From Candidatus Nomurabacteria bacterium (lineage in GTDB: Bacteria > Patescibacteriota > Minisyncoccia > Phycocordibacterales > UBA918): a DNA stretch of 64,000 bases. The first letter of the stretch is position 1. The number at the start of each line of letters is the position of its first letter. Below are positions 5,739-25,628 of the stretch, in pieces. Below the pieces are notes generated by a model. That model was not told where the DNA came from. It ran no database searches and saw only the letters and a program-made list of their open reading frames with translations. Where the stretch lies: contig JACKGH010000001.1 in the NCBI GenBank assembly GCA_020632075.1, positions 195,216 through 259,215 on the forward strand, in the 5' to 3' direction. A program made the translations under genes and the position numbers.

Positions 5739-6692
5739 ATGAAAGTGCGCGCGACAAAGTTGCTATTTTTGGCTCTTTTTGTGCCTGTACTGTTTTTCAG
5801 TACAGGTGTTTCTGAAGTGCTAGCTGGATTCGGTATTACACCGCCGTATGTTCGTAATACTAGTTTGACTCGTAATTCCATTTATGAGCAACAGATTCTC
5901 TTGGTGCGCGGTGAAGCAAACGTTGCACATAATGCTGAAGTTTCAATTGATGCTCCTGAGATCCAAGACTGGATCGAGATTGTTGAAGGTGAAGTTATTC
6001 CAATGCCAAAGGGTGTGCAAAAAGTGCCAATGACTGTACGAATCAAAGTGCCGAGCGATGCTGAGTTCAAGGATTATGAGGGCGCTATCCGTATTCGTAC
6101 ACTTCCAGCTAGCGGTGAAGTCCCCTCTGGAGCAGTTAATATTTCACTCGGGGCACGTGTTGACATTGACCTCTCAGTTATCGATAGAGAAATCAAGGAG
6201 TTTAGAGTACGTAGAATTTCAGTACATGATTTGAACGAAGGTAAAAAAGTTGCTTGGTTGTTTTTTCCTGGAAAGATTCGCTTTGACATGATGATTGAAA
6301 ATACAGGAAATGTAGATGTCGCACCATCTCAAGTAGAGTTCAGGATATTTGATCGTGCAGGCAAGGTACTGCTCGAGGAAACTACTAACCTTGGTAAAAT
6401 AGTAAAAGTGGCACCATATGGTACTGAAACCGTTACAGCAGCTCTGCCAACTCGTTTGCCCGCTGGTGGATACATTGCTCGATATAAAATTTACAATGGT
6501 GAGGACGTAGTGCAAGAAGGAGATCTAACCTTGAATGTACTGCCTGCTGGAACATTGGACGTGGCAGGATTTGGCTTCATCGGGCTCTCACTCGCACACA
6601 AGGTCTCAATCTTGTTGCCGATCTTTGCAGTGATTATTGCTGGTCTCTACGTACTGCATGCACGCAGACGTAACAAAATGACCAGCATGTAG
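5739..6692 (+). CDS. DUF916/DUF3324-like cell-surface protein (signal peptide, two-domain ectodomain, C-terminal TM anchor with basic tail), CscA-like
   Basis: Signal peptide, then motif WIEIVEGEVIPMPKGVQKVPMTVRIKVPSDAEFKDYEGAIRI, then a second domain ENTGNVDVAPSQVEFRIFDRAGKVL, then a C-terminal TM followed by HARRRNK. Paralogous to the CDSs at 23000 and 23982. Confidence 0.6.
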   Translation: MKVRATKLLFLALFVPVLFFSTGVSEVLAGFGITPPYVRNTSLTRNSIYEQQILLVRGEANVAHNAEVSIDAPEIQDWIEIVEGEVIPMPKGVQKVPMTVRIKVPSDAEFKDYEGAIRIRTLPASGEVPSGAVNISLGARVDIDLSVIDREIKEFRVRRISVHDLNEGKKVAWLFFPGKIRFDMMIENTGNVDVAPSQVEFRIFDRAGKVLLEETTNLGKIVKVAPYGTETVTAALPTRLPAGGYIARYKIYNGEDVVQEGDLTLNVLPAGTLDVAGFGFIGLSLAHKVSILLPIFAVIIAGLYVLHARRRNKMTSM

Positions 6693-6693
6693 T

Positions 6694-7800
6694 ATGGCTG
6701 CACTTGTTCGTTATTGTATCGCTTTCATTCTCTTCGTACTTCCAGTTTCAGTCTGGGCTGGTAATCAGTATGCAACAACAACTCTCTCCTTGAGTATTTG
6801 TGGTAATGAACTTGTTGATGATGGGGAGGACTGTGATGTCATTGGTGAAATCGGTACCTATAGCCAAACCATTGCTGGTCGTCAGTGTACACCACAGTGT
6901 CTCTGGGGTCCGTACTGTGGAGACGGTATTCTGCAAACAGTACACGGTGAAGAGTGTGACGATGGTAATAATGATGACGGGGATTTCTGTTCAGCAGTAT
7001 GTCGCATTGAACCGGCAGGTTCTGGCGGCGGCGGTTCGTCTGGCGGTAATACCGGTGGCGGGGGAGGAAGAGATACAGAACTCGGCGACACTATCGTGAA
7101 TATTGTTGGGCGCGGATACCCATCTCGTACCATCAATTTTTTGCTAGACACAGAATCTGTCGGAACTGTGCAGTCAGATCGTGAGGGTAACTTTGAGTTT
7201 GCGACTGACGCTTCACCAGGCACTGCAACTCTTGGAATCTGGTCCACCGATAGTTCTGGGAGGCGTTCAATTACTCTAAACAATACCTTTGATATTACAC
7301 AAGGAGCAATCACTAACTTAAACGGAATCTTACTGCCACCAACCATTGCTGTGCAAAGTCAAAACATTGACCCTGGTGCGGTGATTACCGTATCAGGTCA
7401 GAGTGTTCCAAGTGCGCGAGTTGAGTTGCATGTAGACGATAGCGATCTTGTAGAAACCACCACCGCGGGTTCAAATGGAAACTGGACCATATCTCTAGAC
7501 ACCAGTCGGCTGAGCATAGCTGAGCACATACTTCGAGCCCGCACAGTAGTTGGTACTCCGCCACTTACTACAGAGAGTGCATTTAGTACCTCACTACAGT
7601 TGTTTGTTGGAGTTGATGGACAGATAAGTCAACCTTCAGACCTTAATCGCGACGGCCTCGTGAACTTGATCGACTTTTCTATTCTGATCTTCTGGTGGGG
7701 TACAAGTGGTGGCGATTCTGATCCTCCTGCTGATATTAATCAGAATGGACAAGTTAGCTTGGAAGACTTTTCTATTTTGCTATTTAACTGGACCGGATAA
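6694..7800 (+). CDS. Secreted protein with Cys-rich CxxDDGN repeats, Gly-rich linker, Ig-like region and C-terminal dockerin-like domain
   Basis: CGNELVDDGEDCD and CGDGILQTVHGEECDDGNNDDGDFCSAVC repeats. C-terminal pair DLNRDGLVNLIDFSIL and DINQNGQVSLEDFSIL matches the dockerin Ca-binding repeat pattern DxNxDGxVNxxDxxxL. Confidence 0.7.
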   Translation: MAALVRYCIAFILFVLPVSVWAGNQYATTTLSLSICGNELVDDGEDCDVIGEIGTYSQTIAGRQCTPQCLWGPYCGDGILQTVHGEECDDGNNDDGDFCSAVCRIEPAGSGGGGSSGGNTGGGGGRDTELGDTIVNIVGRGYPSRTINFLLDTESVGTVQSDREGNFEFATDASPGTATLGIWSTDSSGRRSITLNNTFDITQGAITNLNGILLPPTIAVQSQNIDPGAVITVSGQSVPSARVELHVDDSDLVETTTAGSNGNWTISLDTSRLSIAEHILRARTVVGTPPLTTESAFSTSLQLFVGVDGQISQPSDLNRDGLVNLIDFSILIFWWGTSGGDSDPPADINQNGQVSLEDFSILLFNWTG

Positions 7801-8099: not shown

Positions 8100-9212
8100 A
8101 TGCACAGAGCGTCCAACACGTTCTCAGTGCTCCAAGCAACAGCAGCGATCGTAAGCTTCGCAGTGATCCTTTGGTCATTCGGCCTACCATCATTCCACTT
8201 TGCGGAAGCTGCAAATGTCACTTCGTACAGCGACACACTCTCGACCTCACAGCCGAGCGTTGCCGCAGATCACACTATTGTGTTTACAACCCCTTCAGGT
8301 GTTGCAAACAACAATACAATTACCATTGACCTTTCTTCCTTCAACGGAACAAGTTCTATTACAGCAACCGATATCGCTGTCTCAACAACTTCTGCCTTCA
8401 CCGTAGCCGCAACTTGTGGTGGTGGTGAGCAGATTGGAGCTGCATTCGGTACCAATGACAGTACACTCACACTGACATTGTGTGCTTCTGAAGGCTATAG
8501 TATTCCAGCTAATGGAACAACTACCATTGCAATCGGAGGTACAAATAAACTTGTAAACCCAACTGCTGGGTCATATCAGATCCCGCTTACTGCAGGAGCT
8601 TCTGACCTAGGAGAAACACGGGTTGCTATCGTTGATACAGTTACAGTTACTGCTTCGGTTGATACATACTTCCAGTTCTCAGTAGCTGGAGTAACATCCG
8701 GACAAACCGTAAATGGAACGACGACAGGTGGAGCAACAAGTGCAACTTTGATCCCATTTGGTGAACTGTCCGCTGGTTCAGCCAGTACAGCCGCCCAGGA
8801 TCTTACAGTTGTGACTAACGCTCGAAATGGTTTCACGGTGACAGTGACCTCAGACGGTCAGCTTGATTCTATTACTGGTGCTGACATCGATGGTTTCCGA
8901 AACGGGGGCTACGATGATACGCCACAGGCATGGGAAGCACCAAGTGTGACGATCGGTCAGGAAAATACGTATGGTCACTGGGGTATTACCTCAGACGATA
9001 CGGACATCTTTGCCGCAACTGAGACATACGTTTCAGCATCGACAACAGCAGTGCAGATCTTTACTCACGATAGTCCTGTAGATGGTGTTAATTTCCCATC
9101 AACTGGTACTAGTACGACGCGAGTAGGATACACCGTGCAGGTGAGTGCGTTGCAGGAAGCTGCAACGGACTATGAAGCTACGCTGACATACGTAGCAACA
9201 CCAGTATTCTAA
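8100..9212 (+). CDS. Secreted surface protein with divergent C-terminal WxL-like domain (aromatic positions F/Y instead of W), CscB-like
   Basis: N-terminal TM/signal, T/S-rich. The C-terminal ~190 aa align with the C-terminus of the giant protein at 15855: IPFGELSAGSASTAAQDLTVVTNARNGFTVTVTSDGQL against IGFGSVSIGTSQEAAQHLTINTNATEGYQLFLFVDQQL, and terminal ATLTYVATPVF against AAISYLVTPVF. Confidence 0.6.
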   Translation: MHRASNTFSVLQATAAIVSFAVILWSFGLPSFHFAEAANVTSYSDTLSTSQPSVAADHTIVFTTPSGVANNNTITIDLSSFNGTSSITATDIAVSTTSAFTVAATCGGGEQIGAAFGTNDSTLTLTLCASEGYSIPANGTTTIAIGGTNKLVNPTAGSYQIPLTAGASDLGETRVAIVDTVTVTASVDTYFQFSVAGVTSGQTVNGTTTGGATSATLIPFGELSAGSASTAAQDLTVVTNARNGFTVTVTSDGQLDSITGADIDGFRNGGYDDTPQAWEAPSVTIGQENTYGHWGITSDDTDIFAATETYVSASTTAVQIFTHDSPVDGVNFPSTGTSTTRVGYTVQVSALQEAATDYEATLTYVATPVF

Positions 9213-9243: not shown

Positions 9244-9282
9244 GCAAAAAACCCTATCTCCCACCACGAGTGGGGTTTTTTG
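9244..9282 (+). terminator. Rho-independent terminator (CCCAC / GTGGG, then GTTTTTTG), with an A-run upstream
   Basis: AAAAAACCCTATCTCCCACCACGAGTGGGGTTTTTTG. Confidence 0.7.
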
Positions 9283-9472: not shown

Positions 9473-10570
9473 TTGCCATTGCTATACTTAAGGTACATGA
9501 AGAGAATGTCGGGACGTTTTAGCTGGTTATACTTCAGTTTACTTTTCCTTGCTGCGCCAAGTGTGTCCAGCGCCGCTTCACTATACATTGATCCTGCCAC
9601 TAGCGAACTCAATCGTGGGGACTCCGTCACCATGGCAGTGCGAGTCGATACTGACGAAAATGCTCGTGAGTGCGTCAATGCAGTTGATGCAGTCATCTCA
9701 TATTCTCAATCGATCGAACCAATTGATGTTTCGGTCGGTGACTCGATCTTTAGCATGTGGGTTGAAAGTCCAACCATCAACAGAGAGAGCCGCACCATCA
9801 CTTTTGCAGGCGGAATTCCAAATGGATACTGTGGTCGTGTTGTTGGAGACCCTCGCTTGACCAACGTTCTTGCTGAGATCGTATTTCGTTCTCCTGGTGT
9901 GCTTGTTGGTGGTGGTGATGTTGACCGCACAAAGGCAGAGGTGTTTTTTGAGGATGCTACGACTGCGTATCTAAACGATGGGTTTGGTACAAAGGCATCC
10001 CTTACTACTTATGGTGCAAAAATAGCTTTGAACGATCGTCTTGGCACTGAGCTCAAGAATGATTGGCGCACAGAGGTCGCTGCTGACAATATCCCTCCTG
10101 AGCCATTCACGATTGAATTGGTCACACCTGGTTCTGAGTCTCGAGGACAGTACTACATTGTATTCAACACAACTGACAAGCAGACAGGTATTGACCAGTA
10201 CCAGGTCATGGAAGAGCCGATCTCACAATTCAGATCCTTCCGTTGGGGCGCCTCTGATGCACCGTGGATTGAAGCACGTAGTCCATATGTACTTCAAGAC
10301 CAAAATCTCAATAGCATCATTCGCGTGAAAGCGATTGATAAGGCTGGTAATGAATACGTCGCTCATTTTATACCTGAAGACTCACTGCGAACGCTTTCTC
10401 AAGCGTCGATGATCATGGTTCTATTCATTATTCTCATCGTACTGCTTGTCCTAGCGATAGTGATCACTTTAATTCGTTACATAAAACGAAAACACCAGCA
10501 GCGCAAAGATTCTCTTCCAGAAGAGAACGAGGGTGATGCAGAAGAAGTAATCGAAACTGAACATGACTAA
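9473..10570 (+). CDS. Membrane-anchored surface protein with N-terminal cohesin-like domain (probable true start ATG ~9497, MKRMSGRF...)
   Basis: Signal peptide, then a cohesin-like beta-sandwich pattern (SLYIDPATSELNRGDSVTMAVRVDTD...SIFSMWVESPT...ITFAGGIPNGYCG). C-terminal TM followed by RYIKRKHQQRK tail. Paralogous to the N-terminal domains of the CDSs at 10563 and 13024. Confidence 0.6.
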   Translation: MPLLYLRYMKRMSGRFSWLYFSLLFLAAPSVSSAASLYIDPATSELNRGDSVTMAVRVDTDENARECVNAVDAVISYSQSIEPIDVSVGDSIFSMWVESPTINRESRTITFAGGIPNGYCGRVVGDPRLTNVLAEIVFRSPGVLVGGGDVDRTKAEVFFEDATTAYLNDGFGTKASLTTYGAKIALNDRLGTELKNDWRTEVAADNIPPEPFTIELVTPGSESRGQYYIVFNTTDKQTGIDQYQVMEEPISQFRSFRWGASDAPWIEARSPYVLQDQNLNSIIRVKAIDKAGNEYVAHFIPEDSLRTLSQASMIMVLFIILIVLLVLAIVITLIRYIKRKHQQRKDSLPEENEGDAEEVIETEHD

Positions 10571-12323
10571 GTATCACTGTACAATGCAGCATGTTGGCAA
10601 GTATCTCGTCGCACTGGCAGTGTCGTTAGTGCTTCATGCTGTATTTGTAGCGGTTGCTGACGCTGCAACTCTCTCACTCTCACCAGCGACTGGTGTCTAT
10701 GCGTCAGGCAACACGTTTACGGCGCGGGTAGTAGTGCAACCGCAAGGGAAGTCAGTCAATGCGGCAGAAGGGACTCTGGCCTTTAATCCAAACGAACTTG
10801 CAGTTGTCTCTGTGAATCGAACTGGCTCCATATTCAATCTTTGGGTCACTGAGCCTACTTTTTCAAACAGTGCTGGAACGATCTCCTTCAGCGGTGGTGT
10901 GCCATCAGGGTATAGTGGCAATTCAGGTACGGTGATGAACATCATATTTCGTGCAGTGGGTGCTGGTACAGCAAAAGTAAATTTCAAGAACGGTTCAGTG
11001 CTAGCCAATGACGGACGCGGGACGAATATTCTCACTTCCATGGGCGGTGGAACATACACCATTCAAGCAAAGAGTGAGGCTCCGATACCAGAAGTGATAG
11101 AGTATGTTGCTCCGGCAAACACTCCAGGTAAGCCAGTTATTTCATCGAAGACTCATCCTGACCCTGATGGCTGGTACGCAAACAATAAAGCTGAGCTGAC
11201 CTGGACACTGCCAAGTGGCATTACTGCGATCCGTACACTTCTCGACGATGTATCATCCAGTGTTCCCACAAAGGTCTATGACAATCCAGTTAGCTCAATT
11301 ACCTTGTCAGATCTTGATGAGGGAGTGCAGTACTTCCACTTACAATTCAAGAATGAAGATGGTTGGGGAGTGATCAATCACTACCGTTTGGCAGTTGATA
11401 CACGACCACCAACTTCGATCGTGATCAAACATCCAGAAGGAGCAAATCTTGCGAACCCGATCCAGACCCTAGTTGTAGAGGTGAAAGATGACCTCTCGCC
11501 TGTGAATCGTTTCATGATATCAGTAGACGGCGCTGACAAGTATGAGTACATCGACAAAACTGGCTCGAGCACCATTGAACTTCCTTCACTAGAACCGGGT
11601 CATCACACTATTGTTATAGAGGCATACGATGCAGCAGGCAACTTCATTGTCGGTACGCATGCCTTCATGCTTGAATCATTTGATCGACCGGAATTCACTG
11701 AGTATCCAACTGAGATCACTCCAGAGGTGATTCCAGTGATCAAGGGTCAGACACGTTCAAATGCCTCTGTGGAGGTTTCACTCAGCCGTGTTGGAAGTGA
11801 TGCGGTGCTGTATACCATATCAAGTGATGCGGCTGGTGAGTTTGTGTTCATACCAGAGGGCAGGTTTGAGACTGGTGTCTATGAGCTGACAGCAGTTGCT
11901 ACAGACGAGTTTGGCGCCAGGAGTGAAGTGTCTGATGCGATCAGGATCGCGGTGCAGCAGTCCGGATACCTTCGTATTGGTTCATTCTTAGTCAGTGTTC
12001 TTTCAGTGATCGTACCACTCATTGTACTGCTCTTTGCTCTCATTTTTGGTGTTTGGTATCTCTTCATGTATGCGCGGCGCTTCCGTCGTCGTGTGCGTGT
12101 TGAGTCGACTGAAGCAATGCAGATCCTTCGTCGCGAGTTTGGCGACCTGCAAATGACCTTACGTCAGCAAGAGTCAGCCCTGCAGCAGTCACGCAAGACC
12201 AAGAAGCTTACCAAGGCAGAGGCAGCAATGATCGAAGTGTTCGATAGGGCATTGCAGCAATCACAGATGAAGGTAGAGAAGGAGATCGAAGATGTTACAG
12301 ATTTAACCCGTAAACAAGAATAA
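10563..12323 (+). CDS. Membrane-anchored surface protein: cohesin-like N-terminal domain, Ig/Fn3-like repeats, C-terminal TM and cytoplasmic coiled-coil tail
   Basis: LSLSPATGVYASGNTFTARVVVQPQGKSVNAAEGTLAFNPNELAVVSV...ISFSGGVPSGYSG resembles type-I cohesin. The TM IGSFLVSVLSVIVPLIVLLFALIF is followed by an R-rich stop-transfer and a coiled coil. Confidence 0.6.
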   Translation: MTKYHCTMQHVGKYLVALAVSLVLHAVFVAVADAATLSLSPATGVYASGNTFTARVVVQPQGKSVNAAEGTLAFNPNELAVVSVNRTGSIFNLWVTEPTFSNSAGTISFSGGVPSGYSGNSGTVMNIIFRAVGAGTAKVNFKNGSVLANDGRGTNILTSMGGGTYTIQAKSEAPIPEVIEYVAPANTPGKPVISSKTHPDPDGWYANNKAELTWTLPSGITAIRTLLDDVSSSVPTKVYDNPVSSITLSDLDEGVQYFHLQFKNEDGWGVINHYRLAVDTRPPTSIVIKHPEGANLANPIQTLVVEVKDDLSPVNRFMISVDGADKYEYIDKTGSSTIELPSLEPGHHTIVIEAYDAAGNFIVGTHAFMLESFDRPEFTEYPTEITPEVIPVIKGQTRSNASVEVSLSRVGSDAVLYTISSDAAGEFVFIPEGRFETGVYELTAVATDEFGARSEVSDAIRIAVQQSGYLRIGSFLVSVLSVIVPLIVLLFALIFGVWYLFMYARRFRRRVRVESTEAMQILRREFGDLQMTLRQQESALQQSRKTKKLTKAEAAMIEVFDRALQQSQMKVEKEIEDVTDLTRKQE

Positions 12324-12327
12324 CCGT

Positions 12328-13014
12328 ATGCAAGAAAATCATAAGACAGGATGGATCACCAAGAAGAATATATTTGTAGCGCTCTTGGGAGCAGTACTGA
12401 CGTACATGCTCGTTACCTCAGTGGTAGATACTCGCATGCAGGCAGTTGAGCAAAACATCAGAGATCGACTTTCTGATCAAGAAGTACTGCTGGCTGCGAT
12501 CGCTGAGACAACCGCACGCAACGGTGCTGATGCGGTAACTGAGAGAGTGGTGCAGGACTGCTCACTTACTGAACGAAGTAGTTTTGACACTTTGCTTGGT
12601 CGTTTGGATAAAGGACTTTCATACAGTGAGCTCACTGAACTTGAACGGTTGTTTGGTCGGTGTGGTAGTTTCTACTCAGAACGAAAAGCAATGATGGTTT
12701 CTCGTCTGTCTCGCGAGACAGAGATCTATGAAAGTTACGTAGAGCAGCTAAGTACGGTCACTGGCGAAGATCATGCGGAAGAATTTCGTGTAGCTGAGTG
12801 GAAAGCCTTAGCTACAAATGAGCAAGAGCGCAGTGAGTTGCTTGCGTCTCTTGTTAACTTACAAGATCAGATCATTGCCACATTGCTCAATGGTGCTAGT
12901 GCAACATCGCCTGAAATGACACCAATCTTGTATGAGGTACGCGAAGCGCAAGACACCCTTATAGTTGTGACAAAGCAGATATCTGATCTCCGTACCAGCC
13001 TTGTTGCATTGTAG
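12328..13014 (+). CDS. Hypothetical N-terminally membrane-anchored protein
   Basis: One N-terminal TM. The soluble part is helical and coiled-coil-like. No recognisable family. Confidence 0.5.
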   Translation: MQENHKTGWITKKNIFVALLGAVLTYMLVTSVVDTRMQAVEQNIRDRLSDQEVLLAAIAETTARNGADAVTERVVQDCSLTERSSFDTLLGRLDKGLSYSELTELERLFGRCGSFYSERKAMMVSRLSRETEIYESYVEQLSTVTGEDHAEEFRVAEWKALATNEQERSELLASLVNLQDQIIATLLNGASATSPEMTPILYEVREAQDTLIVVTKQISDLRTSLVAL

Positions 13015-13023
13015 GTATGAATT

Positions 13024-13770: not shown

Positions 13771-13791
13771 GCCGCATATCTGTTGATAAGA

Positions 13792-13830
13792 ATACCAGCG
13801 TCTTACACGAGAGGCTGGTATTATTATAAT
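13792..13830 (+). terminator. Rho-independent terminator (ATACCAGC / GCTGGTAT, then TATTATTATAAT)
   Basis: Hairpin plus an AT/U-rich tract after the stop. Confidence 0.55.
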
Positions 13831-13853
13831 CAGCGAGGTTTTCTACCTGGCTG

Positions 13854-18800: not shown

Positions 18801-21800
18801 CAGCTTGAGTACGCAACTAAAACTGCAGCGTGTAACGTACTTTCAGAGTGGGTTGATGTTGGAGTGTCCGACGGTGGAGATTGGGATGTCGTTGATTCTA
18901 CACATGTCACCAACGGCGCGAACACAACCAACATCACCTCAGCCGCTTACGGTGCTCTAACTGACGAAAACAGTAGTTTCCTCTCGTCAAATGGCGGTGT
19001 ACGAGACACTTCCTCACAAACAGGTTCGCTTATCCTCTCGAGTACGCAGTTTGTTGAGCTGGAGTTTGCGATCGAGCCGACCAGTGGCGCACCACAAGGT
19101 AACACCTACTGTTTTAGGTTGAGTGATGATGGAACACCACTACCCCGATATGACGTGTATGCAGAAGGAACCATTTCGGCTGATGTCGATGTGAGTGCAA
19201 GCGGAACACAAGCTACGAGTGTGAGTTTTAACTCGGCTAATAATTACCTTGGTGGGGTCTTTGTTATTGAACGACCAGGAACAAATCGAACAGTTACAGA
19301 CATCACCATCACTGAATCAGGAACAGTTGATGGCCAGGAGGGACTTGATAACATTGAACTTTGGTACGACCTTGATACTACAGCGCCGTATGACTGTACC
19401 GGAGAGTCTTACGGTGGGGGAGAAACACAATTTGGATCGACTGACACGAATGGATTCTCTGGTTCGGACGGAACATCTCAATTTACTTCTGCTGGGGTAA
19501 ATATAAACGAAACAACCAGTATGTGTGTGTATGTGGTATACGACACCACTGCCAGTTCATCAAACGGAGAAACTATCGATATCAAGATTGCTAGTCCATC
19601 TTCTGATGTTGTGGTGACAGGTTCATCAGTTGGCCCAAGCACAGCAGTCTCTCCGACCGGTAGTACTACTATCGCCGGGCCAATACTGACACAGATGCAC
19701 TACCACTGGCGGAATGATGACGGTACTGAATCTGGGGCAACCTCAGTCAGCGGTGGGGTGGAAGATACACCGATCAGTGCAGTGCCTAAAGAGTCGATCA
19801 GACGTTTGCGACTTGAAGTGTCAAACGAAGGGACTGTTAATGCCTTGGCGACCAACTTTCGCTTGGAGTATGGTACGAAAATCACAACATGCGATGCTGT
19901 CGTGACCTGGACAGATGTTGGGGAAGTCGCTGGAGCCTGGGACATGGCCTTAAGTTCAAATATTGCTGATGGCGACACAAGCGATATTGCGCTTGGCGCT
20001 AATGGTGCGCTGACCAATGAGAATACGACTTTCGATGGAGTGGGGGCGTTGCGTGAATCTACCTCTGAGTCTGGTGCGATCACATTGACCACAACTGAAT
20101 TCACTGAACTCGAGTATTCTATCGAAGCAACGGTTGATTCAGGGTATGATACGACCTACTGTTTTAGGGTCACTGATTCTGGTACTGAGCTGCAAGGGTA
20201 TGATGTGTACGCAGAACTGACTACACGCGAGAAGCAGGATTTTTACATTCAACGGGGAGTCACTTTTGTTTCTGGCACAAGCACCACTTTAGTAGCTGGG
20301 ACTGATTACATTGCACCTTCTGCAGCAGATGCAGCATTCATCAGAATTACAAACACACAGCTTACTGGTGCGGGCCGTAGCGCCGGAAACGCGACCCAAA
20401 ATGCTGATGATGTTACAGCGTATATTGAAAACCCAGACAATATTTTAAACAACATTGTTATTGCTCGTCCTACTGGTGCTTCTGATGACACGCGTGTGGC
20501 CTGGGAAATCATCGAGTATATTGGCATTGCTGGTGGCGATAATGAAATGATCGTGCGTGATCATGGTGTTGTTTCATTGGGTACTACAGATCTGACTGCT
20601 ACTGGGGCAACTGTTTCAGGAGTTTCAAACGACAGTGATATTGTCGTGTTTGTCACTGGTCAGCTCAATACGGATACGGGCACTAATTACAGTACGGGGT
20701 TGTACACTTCTGAATGGTCTAGTTCTACTGATGAACCTGTCTTCACTCGTGGTGTTAGTGGTGACACAGGTGAGGTTAGTTATGCGGTTGTTGAATTCAC
20801 TGGTGATAACTGGAAAGTGCAGCGAATTGAACATAATTACGCGGCTGGTGGTGTAACTGAGGTCGAGTCTGTGTCAGCAGTAAACAGTCTTTCACGAGCG
20901 TTCGTCCATGCGCAAAAACGCACCTCTGAACACGGGCTCGATGAAACAGGTCATGAAGTATGGCTTTCTAGTATTGGATACCTTTCCTTTGCACTAGAAT
21001 CTGGCGTAACCAGTCCTACTAATCACTATAGTGTTGCTTGGGTAATTGAAAATACCCAAAGCAGTAATGGTGCGATGAGTGTTCAGAGATCGAATGGAGT
21101 TCTGGCACGAAATACACCTTGTGGTGGAGTAGAGCCGTGTACCGAAGTTGTTTCGATCACGGCCGTCAATGAGTCTAATGCTTCACCGTGGGTGACCAAC
21201 AGGAGTTCGGGATCAGGTACGTTGTTTCCTCGTCCAATTGTCGGAGTGCGACTGGTTAACTCGGGAACAGAGATCGAGTACTGGCGTTCCGACACTGGAC
21301 AGCCGCAAACGTACCGTACCGAGATTGTCACATGGCCAGTAGCTGAAACTGCGGTGCGACAAAATTACTATCGATTTTATGTTGATAACGACAGTCTCAC
21401 ACCAACTGATGCCTGGCCTGTGGGTGCTGAAGATCTGGGTGAGAATACCACCTTGACTGCTGCAGATGATCCGCTTGGTGAAGGAGAACGTGTGCGCATC
21501 CGAATGTCTCTAAGAATCAGTAATGCTACCCTACCGGAATTAACCAAAACTTTTAAATTACAGTATGGGCTTCAGGAAACAACCTGCTCAGCAATTAGCG
21601 CCTGGACTGATGTAGGTACGCCAGGAAGCGGAACGATCTGGCGTGGTTACAATGGAACAGAAGTTGACGGCACAGCTATTGCGACCAGCACACCTGCAGC
21701 TGGCACACTACTTCTTACTCCGTCTGATGTAGCTGGTACCTATGAGGAGCAAAATGATTCTGCAGTTAATCCTTACAAAGTGGATATTGGGGAGGATGTT

Positions 21801-22994
21801 GAGTACGACTGGGTAGTGCAGCACAACGGTGCAGCACAACGATCAGACTATTGTTTTAGAGTTGTGAATAGTGATGACAGTGAAATCGCTGGATACATCA
21901 ATTACCCAGTGATTCGCACAACAGGCTACACACCAATTGTAGCGAACTGGCGATGGTACGATGACGAAATCAATGTGACACCGTCTAGTCCACTCGATCA
22001 AGAGAATATTGCACCCACAGATATCGCAAATCAAAACACAATAAAACTGAGAGTCACTGCAGCAGAAGTTGAAAATGCAATTGGTACCAACGTCAAGTTT
22101 GCATTGCAGTACTCAGAGTACGCCGATTTCTCTGACGGCGGAACCTTCCTTACAAGCACAAGTTCCTGCGTTGAGAACTCAATCTGGTGTTACGCAGATG
22201 GAGCAGGTGTTGATGGTGATCTTGTTACAAACGCAACTCTGAGTGATGCTGACAGTTGTGTTGGTGGTGTTGGTAGCGGGTGTGGAACCCATAACGAAGC
22301 TGCAACGACTACTAGTACATTCACTCATGGAGCAAGTGCTAATGCTGAGTTTGAGTTCACGCTCAAAAACGCGGGTGCTCGGGTCAATGCAGTGTACTAC
22401 TTTAGATTATACGATGTTTCATTCGACCAGCCTCTTGTCGCTAGTTCATCATATCCATCACTCGTAGTTGAGGGCCCGACACTTGTCTCCACACTTTCGG
22501 GTGTAGATGCTGGAACCGCAATTGCTGGTATTGTGACAGATGCGACCACCACTGCGACAGCTATTGGTTTCGGGAGTGTGTCTATAGGCACTTCACAAGA
22601 GGCAGCTCAACACCTCACCATCAACACAAACGCTACAGAAGGCTACCAGCTCTTTCTCTTTGTTGATCAACAGCTTGAAAATGCATACGGTGACGAGATC
22701 AAACCTATCACAGGCACAAACGCAGCACCGGTAAGCTGGGCAACTGGATGTGTGGCAACAGCAGTTAGTTGCTTTGGCTACCATACAACTGATGCGGTCC
22801 TAGAAAATGCATCTGCCCGATTCGCACCGATCGATTCATACGCGGCGCTCAGTACCGGTGCGGCAGAAATTATGTACAGTTCTATCCCAAGCGACGACAC
22901 TCATAGTATTGTGTATAGAATGTTTGTTTCTCAATACCAACCAGCTGGTGATTACGAAGCTGCTATTAGTTACTTGGTGACTCCTGTTTTTTAG
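15855..22994 (+). CDS. Giant (2379 aa) secreted surface protein with internal repeat modules and a C-terminal divergent WxL-like domain, CscC-like
   Basis: Signal-anchor. Two ~180-aa A modules (DVEVSASGTQ...HYHWRNDDGDETD and DVDVSASGTQ...HYHWRNDDGTESG). Four ~150-aa B modules (RRLRFEVS...FQLEYATKTAACN...WVDVG...YCFRLSDDG and variants). The C-terminal 190 aa are homologous to the C-terminus of the 8100 protein, ending ISYLVTPVF. Confidence 0.8.
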   Translation: MLQWETLRVYFVNQKSRFGLYRRAASFLLVLLVFFSNVTSPLLQLLPGIIRDHAPIGPSTAFAATGDFATFRESTAGDTISQGGPPVAIKWDTTISSNANLGLQANTSDIDLADGGKYFVTYSAWAYEGTAGGTNRRTVDTYLTLNNVPLAYGRGSGYIRDNEGDTSAYANGGAIISAAAGDDLEAYIKRNDGNATAGTQLQPGVNGISVLKLPESADYLRARIAATSSSISANTSFTDVVWDTADEVDTGSFAFTPSSGNITMKGAAGTNFMITANVGLYVSGGGTTRQNYEMRLTLDGVEVPGSRVTTYLRGSDNTWYGTLAYMGIISKTSASDQTLNIEIRRESTGGATTVIQGDKAGLAIMALPDIAEVVRLTDNSGTQQPALTSKPLYFDTNDEVDASAFGHSTSANQDRVTISAAGDYLFFATAYSTTSNSDNNREPFRIDWNKTGSQQNYGGFGAFNRSNSTFSGGASGAILLNGLGTSDYVHLKYIDETTSAPENGTFNAGRVALQGIALNDNFFGLDVEVSASGTQTSAVDIPTSNTYVGGQFVVTENSGSRNVTNVTITESGTVDGANGLDNIKLYYDLDTSSPYDCASESYGGGESQFGSTDTNGFSGADGSSSFSDSVAITTTKALCLYPVMDIVAAATDGDTIELSIDNPTTDVVVTGGASIGPATTQAISGATTLRSADLTQTHYHWRNDDGDETDTVANATPTVKNTTSSGFGASTAGNDPVLTVPANAVEGDYMVVIFTTDDNNPTQTPTPPSSETWTLQESGLMPVDGTAAVSPPAAWIYTKFVSADDEANAGTKTYTWQDSAGSEEQAAQLILLNNVKGWGEFNTNLLTGNQTSINAPSVTTTETNEIVFHAAFKDNNATFTALPTGSTVVNSGWGPASDAGAALGIVYAVYPTVGATGAKTFSLASNEANGFTFSLQPTNAGGATSIEGAEDTPAIGFANGTVRRLRFEVSAEGSTSSLPTVFQLEYATKTAACNVLSEWVDVGVSDGGDWDVVDSTHVTNGANTTNITSAAYGALTDENSSFLSSNGGVRDTSSQTGSLILSSTQFVELEFAIEPTSGAPQGNTYCFRLSDDGTPLPRYDVYAEGTISADVDVSASGTQATSVSFNSANNYLGGVFVIERPGTNRTVTDITITESGTVDGQEGLDNIELWYDLDTTAPYDCTGESYGGGETQFGSTDTNGFSGSDGTSQFTSAGVNINETTSMCVYVVYDTTASSSNGETIDIKIASPSSDVVVTGSSVGPSTAVSPTGSTTIAGPILTQMHYHWRNDDGTESGATSVSGGVEDTPISAVPKESIRRLRLEVSNEGTVNALATNFRLEYGTKITTCDAVVTWTDVGEVAGAWDMALSSNIADGDTSDIALGANGALTNENTTFDGVGALRESTSESGAITLTTTEFTELEYSIEATVDSGYDTTYCFRVTDSGTELQGYDVYAELTTREKQDFYIQRGVTFVSGTSTTLVAGTDYIAPSAADAAFIRITNTQLTGAGRSAGNATQNADDVTAYIENPDNILNNIVIARPTGASDDTRVAWEIIEYIGIAGGDNEMIVRDHGVVSLGTTDLTATGATVSGVSNDSDIVVFVTGQLNTDTGTNYSTGLYTSEWSSSTDEPVFTRGVSGDTGEVSYAVVEFTGDNWKVQRIEHNYAAGGVTEVESVSAVNSLSRAFVHAQKRTSEHGLDETGHEVWLSSIGYLSFALESGVTSPTNHYSVAWVIENTQSSNGAMSVQRSNGVLARNTPCGGVEPCTEVVSITAVNESNASPWVTNRSSGSGTLFPRPIVGVRLVNSGTEIEYWRSDTGQPQTYRTEIVTWPVAETAVRQNYYRFYVDNDSLTPTDAWPVGAEDLGENTTLTAADDPLGEGERVRIRMSLRISNATLPELTKTFKLQYGLQETTCSAISAWTDVGTPGSGTIWRGYNGTEVDGTAIATSTPAAGTLLLTPSDVAGTYEEQNDSAVNPYKVDIGEDVEYDWVVQHNGAAQRSDYCFRVVNSDDSEIAGYINYPVIRTTGYTPIVANWRWYDDEINVTPSSPLDQENIAPTDIANQNTIKLRVTAAEVENAIGTNVKFALQYSEYADFSDGGTFLTSTSSCVENSIWCYADGAGVDGDLVTNATLSDADSCVGGVGSGCGTHNEAATTTSTFTHGASANAEFEFTLKNAGARVNAVYYFRLYDVSFDQPLVASSSYPSLVVEGPTLVSTLSGVDAGTAIAGIVTDATTTATAIGFGSVSIGTSQEAAQHLTINTNATEGYQLFLFVDQQLENAYGDEIKPITGTNAAPVSWATGCVATAVSCFGYHTTDAVLENASARFAPIDSYAALSTGAAEIMYSSIPSDDTHSIVYRMFVSQYQPAGDYEAAISYLVTPVF

Positions 22995-22999
22995 GTGGT

Positions 23000-24019
23000 A
23001 TGATAGAGAACATGAAAAACTTCTTGTTTACAGCGCTCTTGTTTGCACTTATGCTGCCAGCTTCATCTGTGTTTGCAGGAGAATACACGGTCCGGCCATT
23101 TTTACTCGATCACACGGCAGTGCCGCGCGACGTGATCACTGATACCGTACTGCTCACCAATGATAGTCCGATCCGGAAATATGTCATTTTCGCAACAGTA
23201 AATGAGATCTCCGTTGACAAAGAAGGCGAGATAAAGGAGTTCGTCTCGCCAGTCATGACTGATCGTTCAGTCACACTTCCGAGTTGGATCGAGGTAAAAC
23301 GCAGTCGTATCGAGATACCGCCAGGGGAACAGATCGAAGTGCCCGTCACTTTCAGGATCAGCCCAAATGCTGAGCCAGGAACATACCATGCATTCATTGG
23401 ATTTGTTCCAGCTCCAAATCGACCGACTGCCGAACGAATCGCCATGGACGGTGAAGCAGACGGAGTAGTGGTCAAGATAACCATCTCTGATCAGCGGGAG
23501 GAAAGTATGCGTATCAGCAGCTTTGAGGTGGATCGGTTTGTTACTGGCGAAAATAATCGATCGATCGATATCACGCTTGAAAACAAAGGGGATATCGCCT
23601 CAGCACCAACAGGGGAGATCATCTTTTACGACTCACGCGGCGTTGAGATCACTTCAGTTGAGGTGAACCAGGACGGAGGCACTGTTGTTGAGCCGGGTGG
23701 CACAGCAACCATTCATAGTCAAGTGCCACTTGGAGAGGGACTTGGTCGTTTCAAAGCGAACCTCACACTCGACTACGGAGAAAAGCAAACAGCTTCACTG
23801 CATGACAGCACCATATTTTACATAGTGCCACTACACCTCCTCATTATTGGACTGATCTTTGTTATCTTTGGTTCATTGCTAGTAACCTTCCTCTTCAAGC
23901 GCACTTTCATGAGTGAGGAGTTCCACGACGGGACAGATGAGGTTACAATGTATATCAAAGAAGGCCACGACGCTGATCCACATGAACATGATATCGACCT
24001 TAGTAAGCCAAAAGAATAA
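23000..24019 (+). CDS. DUF916/DUF3324-like cell-surface protein with C-terminal TM anchor (CscA-like paralog)
   Basis: Signal peptide, then WIEVKRSRIEIPPGEQIEVPVTFRISPNAEPGTYHAFIGF and LENKGDIASAPTGEIIFYDSRGVEI, then a C-terminal TM followed by FKRTF. Confidence 0.6.
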   Translation: MIENMKNFLFTALLFALMLPASSVFAGEYTVRPFLLDHTAVPRDVITDTVLLTNDSPIRKYVIFATVNEISVDKEGEIKEFVSPVMTDRSVTLPSWIEVKRSRIEIPPGEQIEVPVTFRISPNAEPGTYHAFIGFVPAPNRPTAERIAMDGEADGVVVKITISDQREESMRISSFEVDRFVTGENNRSIDITLENKGDIASAPTGEIIFYDSRGVEITSVEVNQDGGTVVEPGGTATIHSQVPLGEGLGRFKANLTLDYGEKQTASLHDSTIFYIVPLHLLIIGLIFVIFGSLLVTFLFKRTFMSEEFHDGTDEVTMYIKEGHDADPHEHDIDLSKPKE

Positions 24020-25628
24020 ACGAGGCCTTTTCACTCTTTTTGCCAGCTTCTTCTTATTGGCAGTATTTGGAGTGCCGTCAGCTAGCGCACAAGAAACCGT
24101 ATCGCTCAGTGTCTCTCCGACCATATTTGATATGTCTGCGAATCCTAGCCAGGATTGGCAGAGTAGTATTCGAGTGATCAATTCAAACCCGCAAGAGCTG
24201 CAAGTGTACTTAGATGTTGTGAACTTTGCACCAAGAGGGGAACAGGGCAATGCGCAGTTCTTACCTGTGCTCGATGGAGAAGCACAAGGAAATACGATCG
24301 CCGAATGGATCGAACTCAGCGAAACGGAGCTACTCATCCCACCCGAACAGACAGTCCAGGTGCCGTTTACAGTGCATGTTCCAGAAGACGCTGAGCCAGG
24401 TGGTCATTTTGCTGCCATTCTCGTCGGTACCAAGCCACCCAAAGGCGATAACCGAAGTAATAAAGTAGAAACTTCGCAGATCATCACCTCTCTCATGTTG
24501 CTACGAGTGAGCGGGGACGTTGAAGAAAGTGGAATCATTAGATCATTCCGCCCGACGGAATACCTATTTGATAAGCCGCAGGTTGAGTTTGAGTTGCGAT
24601 TCCAGAACACAGGCAATGTTCACTTGCTGCCCCAGGGTGAGATCCGTATTACGAATATGTGGGGACAAGAGCGCGGAGTAATACCGATCAACCGCGAAAC
24701 CCTTTTTGGAAATGTGTTGCCAGACAGTGTCAGAAAGTTTGATTTTACCTGGACTGGACAGTGGTCGATCGGAGATATTGGTCGCTATTCAGCGGTCGCA
24801 ACGCTTGCGTACGGACAAGAGGGAAGAAAGTTTGCTTCAGCAGAAACTAATTTTTGGGTAGTACCTCTAAAGGCGCTCATGATCGTATTACTCATTGTGA
24901 CGGCGTTTATTGTGATTGTTACCTGGTCCATCAAAGCATACGTGCGCAAAATGCTCTCAATGGCAGGCGTCGCTCCAGAAGGAAGGGTCCGGAGGATACA
25001 AGGTTCACCGCGAAAAGTATCAGTCGTAGCGCCGATCGAGGCGGGCATCCTAGACCTAAGCGATCGCCTAAAGACTTCGGATAGCCTTTCCGATAAACTA
25101 ACATCAGTGCGCGAATTTGTACGAGTAAACCGAACATTCTTTGTTGCAGGTACACTCATGGTAATTGGAGTGGTTCTTATTGTATGGTTCGTGCTACTTG
25201 CCTCAACCCAGGAGCGGTCGTATGAAGTGACCATAGGTACTGGTGAGCATCCAGTCACAATTACTTCTGAGGACGTAGAATATGAAGCGTTGCGCGATAG
25301 TGCCCCCGCACCACTCGGAAACGCTACTACGACAAGTGATTCGCTGCCAACCCTCCGGATAGTCAACCAAAGTAGCATTCCTGGTCTCGCCGCATCACTT
25401 CGAGTCGAGCTAGAGGCTGCGGGATACACAATCGCTGATCTCAGTACTGACCTGAATGCCGACAAAAACAACACTGTCATTGTGTATGCTCCTGAATACG
25501 CAGAGGAAGCACTTGCGCTCAGCCAGCTTATCAATGGCGCGCTCCTCTCGGCTTTTGCTGAGGCATCAGATGCAGACGTCCCAATCACGGTCTATGTCGG
25601 ACGAGATTTCGAAAATGAGGTACAATAG
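23982..25628 (+). CDS. DUF916/DUF3324-like ectodomain, TM, cytoplasmic linker, second TM, C-terminal LytR_C domain. The start is chosen at the internal ATG (MNMISTLV...); the ORF-track start 23913 overlaps the upstream gene
   Basis: Signal peptide RGLFTLFASFFLLAVFGVPSASAQE. Motifs WIELSETELLIPPEQTVQVPFTVHVPEDAEPGGHFAAILVG and FQNTGNVHLLPQGEIRITNMWGQ. C-terminal TLRIVNQSSIPGLAASLRVELEAAGYTIADLSTD...TVIVYAPEYAEEALALSQLING...ITVYVGRDF matches the LytR_C (LCP-associated) domain pattern. Confidence 0.6.
   Translation: MNMISTLVSQKNKRGLFTLFASFFLLAVFGVPSASAQETVSLSVSPTIFDMSANPSQDWQSSIRVINSNPQELQVYLDVVNFAPRGEQGNAQFLPVLDGEAQGNTIAEWIELSETELLIPPEQTVQVPFTVHVPEDAEPGGHFAAILVGTKPPKGDNRSNKVETSQIITSLMLLRVSGDVEESGIIRSFRPTEYLFDKPQVEFELRFQNTGNVHLLPQGEIRITNMWGQERGVIPINRETLFGNVLPDSVRKFDFTWTGQWSIGDIGRYSAVATLAYGQEGRKFASAETNFWVVPLKALMIVLLIVTAFIVIVTWSIKAYVRKMLSMAGVAPEGRVRRIQGSPRKVSVVAPIEAGILDLSDRLKTSDSLSDKLTSVREFVRVNRTFFVAGTLMVIGVVLIVWFVLLASTQERSYEVTIGTGEHPVTITSEDVEYEALRDSAPAPLGNATTTSDSLPTLRIVNQSSIPGLAASLRVELEAAGYTIADLSTDLNADKNNTVIVYAPEYAEEALALSQLINGALLSAFAEASDADVPITVYVGRDFENEVQ

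What the first reader, a model, noticed from the sequence alone, without database searches (positions are those of the whole stretch)
5739..25628. Csc/WxL-like cell-surface complex locus with a variant WxL-like domain in which Trp is replaced by Phe/Tyr
Three paralogous proteins (5739, 23000, 23982) have the DUF916+DUF3324-like architecture: signal peptide, two beta-rich domains, C-terminal TM plus basic tail. In Firmicutes this is the CscA component of WxL loci.

In the same island, a 370-aa protein (8100) and a 2379-aa giant (15855) share a ~190-aa C-terminal domain whose conserved blocks correspond to the WxL domain. Where WxL has its first motif these proteins have ...NARNGFTVTVTSDGQL / NATEGYQLFLFVDQQL. 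The terminal block is ATLTYVATPVF / AAISYLVTPVF, where WxL domains have the second W-x-L motif, but with F/Y at the Trp positions.

WxL domains mediate non-covalent peptidoglycan attachment. A systematic W-to-Y/F variant, in a genome that otherwise looks CPR-like, would be an undescribed branch of this surface-display system.
Basis: partly seen in the sequence, partly recalled or inferred. Interest (0 to 1): 0.8.

Follow-up and report, generated by a model that had tools for sequence, protein, structure and literature searches.

The report
Pam-like pilus locus with WxLIP-type chaperones
A conserved gene cluster of an ultrasmall (Kaiserbacteria-type) bacterium most likely builds a surface fibre with a giant sticky tip, and its parts resemble both the newly described "Pam" pili of such bacteria and the WxL surface-protein clusters of lactic-acid bacteria, hinting that the two systems are related.

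Summary
A 370-aa protein (8100-9212) and a 2379-aa giant (15855-22994) share a ~190-aa C-terminal domain (CTD). Three membrane-anchored two-domain paralogs (5739, 23000, 23982) are related to each other.

The paralogs are WxLIP/DUF916-like. The model of paralog B has the solved E. faecium WxLIP at ranks 2-4 in the PDB (E 1e-10). Profile-profile comparison gives 90% probability, and some orthologs of paralog C are already annotated DUF916.

The CTD gives no Pfam WxL hit. Its resemblance to WxL is weak (hhalign P 0.005, above all shuffles), although the blocks are collinear and the Trp positions are always F or Y. The CTD does match NCBIfam's 'CPR Pam pilin C-terminal domain' end to end, below the curated cut-off (E 8e-5 and 4e-4 here, down to 4e-10 in relatives).

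Best reading: a divergent Pam-type, usher-less donor-strand pilus of Parcubacteria. It would have a conserved shaft pilin, a giant tip adhesin, and WxLIP/PapD-like anchored chaperones, one of them fused to a LytR_C domain. The gene order is conserved in 22 of 22 long metagenomic loci.

This is not an undescribed system, because a 2026 preprint describes Pam pili. It is a new variant, and it hints at a Pam-WxL connection that I found in no paper.

The parts
8100..9212 (+). Small CTD protein (370 aa), the candidate major (shaft) pilin. It has a conserved signal peptide, an N-terminal beta-sandwich, a linker with alternating hydrophobic residues, and the C-terminal Pam-pilin-like domain.
   Evidence: More than 1340 homologues at 58-72% identity, all those named being CPR, and none with a Pfam hit. 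AlphaFold model with pLDDT 86.5 and two beta domains. NF058581 hit at E 4e-4 covering profile positions 4-148 of 148.
8622..8684 (+). Inter-domain linker (residues 175-195), the candidate donor strand.
   Evidence: Conserved hydrophobic residues at alternate positions: V175, I177, V181, V183, A185, V187, F191, F193, V195. Linker conservation is 2.39 bits, against 1.52 bits for the N-terminal domain. The model has no assigned strand at residues 178-190, and pLDDT is 66 for residues 181-190.
8652..9209 (+). Shared C-terminal domain (CTD) of the small protein.
15855..22994 (+). Giant CTD protein (2379 aa), the candidate tip adhesin. It has an N-terminal signal/anchor segment, an internal duplication (about residues 526-1090 against 1110-1440), and the CTD at the extreme C-terminus.
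   Evidence: No Pfam or NCBIfam hit for the full-length protein. Internal duplication with 171 of 329 residues identical. Syntenic giants are present in relatives.
22422..22991 (+). Shared C-terminal domain (CTD) of the giant.
   Evidence: NF058581 hit at E 8.2e-5 covering profile positions 2-148 of 148. 75.7 bits to the CTD HMM of the small-protein family.
5739..6692 (+). Paralog A (317 aa): signal peptide, beta-rich region related to paralogs B and C, C-terminal membrane helix and a basic tail. Candidate anchored chaperone or terminator.
   Evidence: 63-74% identical in 20 of 20 metagenomic loci that extend upstream of the pilin gene.
23000..24019 (+). Paralog B (339 aa): WxLIP/PapD-like two-domain protein with a membrane helix (residues 278-304) and a conserved His/Asp-rich cytoplasmic tail.
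   Evidence: Model with pLDDT 83.4. Foldseek matches: WxLIP 1e-10, RbmA 6e-9, FimC 1.4e-8, PapD 1.3e-6. hhalign against WxLIP gives 90% probability.
23982..25628 (+). Paralog C (about 548 aa): DUF916-like two-domain module, membrane helix, cytoplasmic loop, second membrane helix, then an external LytR_C domain (about 25350-25610).
   Evidence: PF06030 at E 6.7e-5 and PF13399 at 5e-12. Orthologues annotated PF06030/DUF916. Hydrophobic segments.
3754..5649 (+). Conserved syntenic 631-aa Thr/Ser-rich envelope protein with an N-terminal membrane segment. Role unknown.
6694..7800 (+). Conserved syntenic secreted protein with a Cys-rich repeat (DUF4215), a Big_6 Ig domain and a dockerin.
9473..15818 (+). 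Five conserved syntenic envelope genes: 9473 (C-terminal membrane helix), 10563 (Big_13, membrane helices, cytoplasmic tail), 12328, 13024 (weak cohesin plus dockerin) and 13854 (acidic region plus a propeller-like repeat).
9259..9275 (+). Terminator-like hairpin just after the small-protein gene. Similar hairpins lie at 5664-5697 and 7798-7825.
   Evidence: These are consensus matches only.

Best explanation
The locus is a divergent, Parcubacteria-type version of the CPR 'Pam' pilus. Pam pili are fibres built without an usher by donor-strand exchange at the cytoplasmic membrane.

Proposed roles:
- The 370-aa protein is the repeating shaft subunit. Its C-terminal domain would be an incomplete Ig-like fold, completed by the alternating-hydrophobic linker strand of the next subunit.
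- The 2379-aa giant carries the same acceptor domain at its extreme C-terminus. It would sit at the tip as the adhesin, as FimH and PapG do.
- The three membrane-anchored two-Ig-domain paralogs are homologous to Firmicute WxLIP (DUF916) and shaped like PapD/FimC. They would hold subunits by strand complementation and hand them to the growing fibre.
- Paralog C, with its external LytR_C domain, would tie the base to the cell wall.

Shown: the homologies, the domain architecture and the synteny.
Inferred: polymerisation, tip and shaft order, and the division of labour among the three paralogs.
For: CTD and Pam pilins:
- Both CTDs match NF058581 (CPR_Pam_pilin_C) over the whole 148-position profile, at E 8.2e-5 and 4.4e-4.
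- 59 of 91 diverse relatives match it, best E 3.7e-10, and two match PamT.
- Ten divergent relatives all match it (eight over nearly the whole profile), and the match always runs to or within two residues of the protein's C-terminus.

CTD family:
- It has 910 representative clusters.
- In all 150 listed it lies at the C-terminus, on proteins that are either about 340-400 aa or 1000-3400 aa long.

Small protein:
- The model shows an N-terminal beta-sandwich, a linker and a C-terminal beta domain. This is the Pam pilin plan described in bioRxiv 10.64898/2026.03.03.709456.
- The linker and CTD are the most conserved parts. The linker has conserved hydrophobic residues at alternate positions, as that paper reports for the donated strand.

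Paralogs:
- Paralog B is modelled as two beta domains plus a C-terminal membrane helix.
- It matches WxLIP, FimC, PapD, Caf1M, EcpB and RbmA.
- This matches the description of PamC, PamD and PamR.

Locus:
- Gene order is identical in every one of 22 long metagenomic loci, over the part each covers, and in a complete Kaiserbacteria genome.
- The pilin gene is flanked by terminator-like hairpins.
- Its sequence is very strongly conserved.
- Both points would fit an abundant structural subunit.
Against: - The NF058581 scores (20-23 bits here, at most 40 in relatives) are well below NCBI's 55-bit cut-off.
- No Pam chaperone, PamR or PamT model matched the window proteins.
- I could not obtain real Pam operon sequences for a direct comparison.
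- No multimer prediction was possible, so strand exchange is untested.
- Apart from the PamA and PamB filament structures, the Pam paper's own assembly model is AlphaFold-based.
- No Pam structure was in the PDB copy.
- No ATP synthase, the Pam neighbourhood hallmark, was found among the window ORFs I scanned.
- The locus has seven further conserved genes, some with cohesin- or dockerin-like modules, that have no place in the Pam model.
Confidence: 0.58

Rival explanations
1. A static WxL/Csc-type surface-display complex. The CTD would be a WxL-like docking domain that is completed by a strand from a membrane-anchored WxLIP-like partner. It would hold the small protein and the giant adhesin on the cell surface one-to-one, without polymerisation.
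For: - The paralogs are WxLIP homologues.
- The cluster composition mirrors the canonical WxL cluster of one WxLIP, a small WxL and a large WxL with the domain at the C-terminus (PMC10599100).
- There is a weak but collinear CTD-WxL profile match, above all shuffles.
- F or Y occupies the Trp positions, apart from one His at the first.
- A solved WxLIP-WxL complex exists (9i25).
Against: - No PF13731 hit in any of the 91 sequences scanned, which include the window's small protein.
- 9i25_A is not among the listed structural matches of the pilin model.
- The CTD matches the Pam pilin model significantly, and Pam pilins are shown by cryo-EM to polymerise.
- The conserved alternating linker is unexplained by simple docking.
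- Three anchors for two cargo proteins is an odd ratio.
Confidence: 0.25
2. A surface coat or biofilm-matrix protein set (BslA/YweA-like hydrophobin or S-layer-like) with generic Ig-like domains. On this reading the similarities to the Pam pilin domain and to WxL would reflect common beta-sandwich features, not homology.
For: - Two of 91 relatives weakly hit Pfam BslA.
- Foldseek E-values against multi-Ig proteins are generically low.
Against: - The NF058581 hits are nearly all end-to-end, run to the C-terminus and recur in 59 of 91 relatives, down to E 4e-10.
- The WxLIP link is supported at sequence-profile level as well as fold level.
- The CTD co-occurs with the anchored paralogs in a fixed gene order.
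Confidence: 0.1
3. The C-terminal similarity between the two proteins is compositional (Thr/Ser/Ala-rich) and the 'domain' is not real.
For: Both proteins are Thr/Ser/Ala-rich.
Against: - E 7e-13 with compositional adjustment.
- 75.7-bit HMM hit.
- 910 representative clusters share the domain, always at the C-terminus among those listed, with invariant G244 and Y358 and W278 in 145 of 146.
Confidence: 0.01

Closest known systems
Pam pilus of Candidatus Mycosynbacter amalyticus (PamA/B/E/T pilins, PamC/D chaperones, PamR anchor). Sources: bioRxiv 10.64898/2026.03.03.709456; NCBIfam NF058581 and NF058579.
   Same: - Restricted to CPR bacteria.
[quoted passage not shown]
- The CTD matches the NCBIfam Pam pilin C-domain model end to end.
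- The partners are two-domain PapD/FimC/RbmA-like proteins with a C-terminal membrane helix, encoded in the same operon.
- There is no usher.
   Different: - Scores lie far below the curated cut-off, so this is a sister family rather than an annotated member.
- The lineage is Parcubacteria/Kaiserbacteria, whereas the paper stresses Saccharimonadia and Microgenomatia.
- A single small pilin is paired with a 2379-aa giant carrying the CTD.
- One partner is fused to LytR_C.
- There are extra conserved genes with cohesin- or dockerin-like modules.
- No ATP synthase neighbourhood was seen.
- No PamT or PamR equivalent was identified.
WxL / WxLIP (Csc) clusters of Lactobacillales and Bacillales (Pfam PF13731, PF06030, PF11797; PMC10599100; PDB 9i1y, 9i25).
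   Same: - The cluster logic is the same: an anchored two-Ig-domain protein with a membrane helix, a small protein and a large protein that share a C-terminal domain.
- The anchored proteins are homologous (fold, hhalign 90%, PF06030 in orthologues).
- WxLIP is predicted to complete the WxL sandwich with a donated strand.
- The FG block, motif 1 and the terminal motif are collinear.
   Different: - No PF13731 or PF11797 hit.
- The hallmark NQIDKxxxYFDLK motif is absent.
- The two tryptophans are replaced by F or Y (one His at the first position), and the second 'L' by A, V or C.
- The phylum differs.
- Peptidoglycan binding is untested here, and a filament role is more likely.
Chaperone-usher pili of Gram-negative bacteria (Pap, Fim, Caf1).
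   Same: The paralog model matches the FimC, PapD, Caf1M, FaeE, EcpB and CupB2 chaperones. The proposed tip adhesin would have its pilin domain at the C-terminus. The proposed assembly is by donor-strand complementation and exchange.
   Different: There is no outer membrane and no usher. The chaperone-like proteins are membrane-anchored. The subunit has two domains, and the donor strand would be an internal linker rather than an N-terminal extension. No sequence similarity was detected.

Membership tests
WxL domain (Pfam PF13731) | Match to PF13731 at or above the gathering score (25 bits). | tested here: not met
   No hit at E <= 0.1 for the 370-aa protein or the giant, nor for 91 diverse relatives. 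Bona fide small WxL proteins score 174-237 bits. Caveat: one bona fide long WxL (L006:205-1896) also lacks a PF13731 hit.
WxL domain (Pfam PF13731) | Two Trp-x-Leu motifs. | tested here: not met
   The aligned positions read G-F-T-V / G-Y-Q-L and T-Y-V-A / S-Y-L-V. Across 146 representatives, position 245 is Y in 76, F in 69 and H in 1. Position 364 is Y in 141 and F in 5. Neither is ever W.
WxL domain (Pfam PF13731) | Profile or structural similarity to bona fide WxL domains. | tested here: inconclusive
WxL domain (Pfam PF13731) | The domain sits at the C-terminus of one small and one large secreted protein, clustered with a WxLIP gene. | tested here: met
   The cluster definition is from PMC10599100.
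WxL domain (Pfam PF13731) | Non-covalent peptidoglycan binding. | not testable with these tools
   Needs biochemistry.
WxLIP / CscA (PF06030 DUF916 + PF11797 DUF3324 + membrane helix) | PF06030 at or above 27.3 bits. | tested here: inconclusive
   Paralog C scores 23.4 bits, E 6.7e-5. Paralogs A and B have no hit. 8 of 43 orthologues of B hit weakly. About 20 of 120 orthologues of C carry a precomputed PF06030 hit, and one is named DUF916 by NCBI.
WxLIP / CscA (PF06030 DUF916 + PF11797 DUF3324 + membrane helix) | PF11797 (DUF3324 / HBD) second domain. | tested here: not met
   No PF11797 hit, nor among the precomputed domains. The low-stringency hhalign does run through the second domain.
WxLIP / CscA (PF06030 DUF916 + PF11797 DUF3324 + membrane helix) | Signal peptide, two Ig-like domains, a C-terminal membrane helix, and a fold like the solved WxLIP. 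| tested here: met
   Model of B. Foldseek ranks 2-4 are 9i1y_A, 9i25_C and 9i1y_B at E 1e-10 to 5e-10. hhalign against 53 WxLIPs gives 90.3% probability, P 1.5e-6.
WxLIP / CscA (PF06030 DUF916 + PF11797 DUF3324 + membrane helix) | Conserved NQIDKxxxYFDLK motif. | tested here: not met
   The motif region is an 11-column gap in the CPR family in the hhalign alignment.
CPR Pam pilus (NCBIfam NF058581 / NF058579; bioRxiv 10.64898/2026.03.03.709456) | Pilin C-terminal domain matching NF058581 at or above 55 bits. | tested here: not met
   The window CTDs score 22.7 and 20.4 bits (E 8.2e-5 and 4.4e-4), with full profile coverage. Relatives reach 40 bits at most. The similarity is significant but below the membership cut-off.
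CPR Pam pilus (NCBIfam NF058581 / NF058579; bioRxiv 10.64898/2026.03.03.709456) | Pilin plan: N-terminal beta-sandwich, a single conserved linker strand, and a truncated Ig-like CTD. | tested here: met
   Model and the conservation pattern. Whether the CTD is truncated or open could not be inspected.
CPR Pam pilus (NCBIfam NF058581 / NF058579; bioRxiv 10.64898/2026.03.03.709456) | Membrane-anchored PapD/FimC-like chaperones in the same operon. | tested here: met
   (FimC 1.4e-8, PapD 1.3e-6, plus the membrane helix). Synteny. There was no direct comparison with PamC or PamD sequences.
CPR Pam pilus (NCBIfam NF058581 / NF058579; bioRxiv 10.64898/2026.03.03.709456) | Assembly into filaments by donor-strand exchange. 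| not testable with these tools
   No multimer prediction was available, and no Pam coordinates are in the PDB copy.
CPR Pam pilus (NCBIfam NF058581 / NF058579; bioRxiv 10.64898/2026.03.03.709456) | Neighbourhood with ATP synthase genes. | tested here: not met
   None was found among the window ORFs scanned. Not every ORF was scanned.
Chaperone-usher pili | Outer-membrane usher. | tested here: not met
   No usher-like Pfam hit in the locus. That CPR bacteria lack an outer membrane is established knowledge.

The most novel reading that the evidence does not exclude
Pam pili of CPR bacteria and the WxL/WxLIP (Csc) clusters of Firmicutes are two branches of one ancient monoderm donor-strand system, with this large Parcubacteria family lying between them. 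If so, WxLIP proteins would be membrane-anchored chaperones or assembly platforms rather than peptidoglycan or host binders. WxL proteins might then be assembled into oligomers or fibres. The 'WxL' tryptophans would be one lineage's version of a conserved aromatic position (F/Y in CPR).
Probability: 0.35. Interest if true: 0.8.

Novelty: new variant of a known kind. Interest (0 to 1): 0.55.

Why it matters
CPR bacteria live attached to other cells, and how they attach is largely unknown. This locus is a conserved, widespread attachment apparatus. The shared domain has 910 representative clusters, and the gene order is identical across many metagenomes.

It would extend the newly described Pam pilus into Parcubacteria, where it carries a giant adhesin. 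That protein is a concrete candidate for host recognition.

The locus also ties the anchored Pam-type chaperone-like proteins to the DUF916/WxLIP family by sequence profile and by a solved structure. If the client domains prove homologous too, this would change how the long-puzzling WxL clusters of enterococci, listeriae and lactobacilli are understood. It would also make that question testable with existing structures (9i25 and the Pam cryo-EM maps).

Tried and rejected
- The AlphaFold-database fold search (afdb50) was not available. The direct test against predicted WxL folds could not be run, and all three fold searches went to the PDB.
- PDB sequence searches with the pilin and paralog profiles found nothing. 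The Pam structures are not in the copy.
- A small bona fide WxL protein did not retrieve 9i25_A by sequence. A long WxL did.
- hhalign in global mode gave nothing.
- A WxL HMM against the locus and against the six-frame window gave nothing.
- The search for related loci with the diverse alignment A4 failed for lack of a conserved stretch.
- Look-ups of the relatives closest to the Pam model (P0384, P0243, P0385) returned only 1-2 kb contigs. No Pam-proximal neighbourhood was obtained.
- NCBIfam has no matching model for the three paralogs.
- I considered whether the 631-aa protein (3754) ends in a related CTD, because its C-terminus reads ...YTGLNTFYAVAS. The CTD HMM does not support this.
- Self-BLAST of the giant listed no internal repeats. 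A direct local alignment showed the duplication.
- I rejected the compositional-artefact reading.

Full report
**What is there**

Between 3.7 and 25.6 kb the window carries an unbroken run of + strand genes for envelope proteins.

The 370-aa protein (8100-9212) and the 2379-aa giant (15855-22994) share their last ~190 residues:
- BLASTP gives 31% identity and E 7e-13 with compositional adjustment.
- An HMM of the small protein's C-terminal half scores the giant's C-terminus at 75.7 bits.
- A six-frame scan finds no third copy in the window.

The proteins at 5739, 23000 and 23982 are paralogs:
- Pairwise E values run from 8e-7 to 2e-20.
- Each has a signal peptide, a beta-rich region and a membrane helix.
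- Only A ends in a short basic tail.
- B has a conserved His/Asp-rich cytoplasmic tail.
- C continues through a second membrane helix into a LytR_C domain.

**Origin and conservation**

- The small protein has more than 1340 homologues at 58-72% identity. All those named are Kaiserbacteria, Parcubacteria or Patescibacteria, and none carries a Pfam annotation.
- A complete Kaiserbacteria genome (CP060228.1) has the same gene order, from the ABC transporter upstream to TGT downstream.
- All 22 metagenomic loci of at least 12 kb keep the order 3754, A, 6694, pilin, 9473, 10563, 12328, 13024, 13854, giant, over the part each covers.
- The rest of the window is housekeeping: TGT, UvrA, UvrB, a histidine kinase and an AcrB-like pump.

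**The membrane-anchored paralogs**

- Paralog C hits PF06030 (now named WxLIP_PGBD) at E 6.7e-5, just under the cut-off.
- About 20 of 120 orthologues of C carry PF06030, and NCBI names one 'DUF916 domain-containing protein'.
- Using the published motif NQIDKxxxYFDLK (PMC10599100), I fetched 68 Firmicute loci and extracted 53 WxLIP and 75 WxL proteins. A sample of ten was checked with Pfam: all four WxLIPs and five of six WxL proteins matched strongly, and the one long WxL did not.
- The profile of paralog B's family aligns to the WxLIP profile with 90.3% probability, P 1.5e-6. At low stringency the alignment runs over 304 columns from signal peptide to membrane helix.
- The AlphaFold model of B (pLDDT 83) has two beta domains and a helix at residues 278-304.
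- Its PDB matches at ranks 2-4 are the solved E. faecium WxLIP, alone and bound to a long WxL (9i1y, 9i25; E 1e-10). RbmA, FimC, EcpB, CupB2, FaeE, PapD and Caf1M follow.
- Two WxLIP features are missing: the NQIDK...YFDLK motif and any PF11797 hit.

**The shared C-terminal domain**

Pfam WxL (PF13731) does not match either window protein or any of the 91 sequences scanned, the small window protein and 90 diverse relatives. NCBIfam gives a different answer.
- Both CTDs match NF058581, 'CPR_Pam_pilin_C', over the whole 148-position profile, at E 8.2e-5 and 4.4e-4. The scores of 20-23 bits are below the 55-bit cut-off.
- A whole-library HMMER search with the two CTDs found 910 representative clusters, 493 of them at E <= 1e-10.
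- In all 150 listed, the domain lies at the C-terminus of proteins of either about 340-400 aa or 1000-3400 aa, apart from shorter entries.
- Of 91 small representatives, 59 match NF058581 (best E 3.7e-10) and two match PamT.
- Ten of the most divergent all match it, eight over nearly the whole profile.
- The domain is thus a significant but sub-threshold relative of the Pam pilin C-domain.

**What Pam is**

The source is bioRxiv 10.64898/2026.03.03.709456. It reports cryo-EM structures of filaments from a Saccharimonadia parasite.
- The linker of one subunit completes the C-domain of the next.
- The operon encodes PapD/FimC-like chaperones with a C-terminal membrane helix (PamC, PamD), a C-domain-only tip (PamT) and an RbmA-like anchored terminator (PamR).
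- There is no usher.
- The assembly pathway in that paper is AlphaFold-based.

The window proteins fit this plan.
- The pilin model (pLDDT 86.5) has two beta domains joined by residues 178-190, which have no assigned strand. pLDDT is 66 for residues 181-190.
- Across 91 relatives, the linker (2.39 bits) and the CTD (2.36 bits) are more conserved than the N-domain (1.52 bits).
- Residues 175-195 have conserved hydrophobic residues at alternate positions: V, I, V, V, A, V, F, F, V.
- The giant, with the acceptor domain at its end and about 2200 residues of other domains before it, is the natural tip adhesin. This role is inferred.

**Is the CTD also a WxL domain?**

Three blocks line up by eye:

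| Block | CPR CTD | WxL |
|---|---|---|
| FG block | IPFG | DFG / FTFG |
| Motif 1 | LTVVTNARNGFTVTVTSDGQL | VQVTDNRGNNAGWRLTVKQNGQF |
| Terminal motif | DYEATLTYVATP | DYQATLTWSLLDAP |

(The WxL strings come.)

The statistics are weak.
- hhalign of a 146-sequence CTD profile against 75 WxL domains gives score 24.4, P 0.0053 and probability 7%. At low stringency the alignment is collinear.
- The score exceeds all 60 column shuffles (mean 10.1) and all 60 block shuffles (mean 13.0, maximum 19.1).
- Unrelated profile pairs give P 0.05 to 0.84.
- HMM cross-hits reach only 10-11 bits.
- AFDB was unavailable.
- A bona fide long WxL also escapes PF13731, so the Pfam negative is not decisive.
- The positions opposite the two tryptophans are Y 76, F 69, H 1 and Y 141, F 5, and never W.

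I rate the CTD-WxL homology as suggestive only.

**Synthesis**

The cluster has the logic of a WxL cluster: an anchored two-Ig protein plus a small and a large protein sharing a C-terminal domain. It also has the sequence signature of Pam pilins. WxLIP is predicted to complete the WxL sandwich with a donated strand, and the Pam chaperones are proposed to do the same for the pilin CTD. The Pam preprint does not mention WxL or DUF916, and I found no paper in the library linking the two.

The most likely function is a Pam-type fibre with a giant tip. The main rival is a static WxL-like docking complex. The system is a new variant of a known kind, not an undescribed one.

Noticed in passing
window 23900-24016 (C-terminal tail of paralog B): The cytoplasmic tail after the membrane helix is strongly conserved across 43 orthologues. 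The consensus is DEVTMYVRDGHDPNPxDHDIDL, with invariant H323, P327, H330, D331, I332 and L334. This suggests a cytoplasmic partner or metal site, which neither the WxLIP nor the Pam description includes.
   Followed up: no
window 8100-8215 (N-terminus of the 370-aa protein): The signal-peptide region is unusually conserved (MHRASNxFSVLQATAAIV..LWSxGLPSxRFAEAANVT). Ordinary Sec signal peptides are not. This may point to a dedicated peptidase or to a retained anchor.
   Followed up: no
window 6694-7800, 10563-12323, 13024-13770: Dockerin domains are present in 6694 (26.5 bits, above the cut-off) and 13024. Weak cohesin-like hits occur in 13024 and in orthologues of 10563. A cohesin-dockerin type assembly may be wired into the same conserved cluster.
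   Followed up: partly
window 15855-22994 (giant), residues about 526-1090 and 1110-1440: Internal duplication with 171 of 329 aligned residues identical. The motif copies (SASGTQ, TITESGTVDG, GGGExQFGSTDTNGFSG, YHWRNDD) are spaced exactly 584 residues apart.
   Followed up: partly
window 23982-24019: The likely start of paralog C (ATG 23982) overlaps the end of paralog B by 38 nt, which suggests translational coupling.
   Followed up: no
window 26150-26698; Cys positions in 8100 and in the giant's CTD: A TlpA-like redoxin gene lies just downstream and is syntenic in Kaiserbacteria. The pilin has two nearly invariant cysteines (C106, C128). In 56 of 146 CTD representatives, Cys also occupies each of positions 282 and 293. 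The giant's CTD has two cysteines in that region (WATGCVATAVSCFGYH), the first aligned with position 282. This may reflect extracytoplasmic disulfides, as reported for Pam pilins.
   Followed up: partly
window 2432-3652 and upstream: A MacB/FtsX-type ABC permease lies immediately upstream of the cluster. An ABC ATPase precedes it in the syntenic Kaiserbacteria genome and in a second assembled contig. A role in the apparatus is possible but untested.
   Followed up: no
L006:205-1896 (Gottfriedia solisilvae): A bona fide 'large WxL' protein (LRR domains, ending ...INWTLIDAP, next to a WxLIP gene) gets no PF13731 hit at E <= 1e-3. The Pfam WxL model therefore misses at least some long-WxL C-terminal domains.
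   Followed up: partly
P0441, P0447 (orthologues of paralog C): JGI names these CPR proteins 'phage pi2 protein 07'. The name is unexplained and was not traced.
   Followed up: no
window 46549-46623 and 47527-47601: Two tRNA-Ala genes (anticodons TGC and GGC) lie about 1 kb apart.
   Followed up: no
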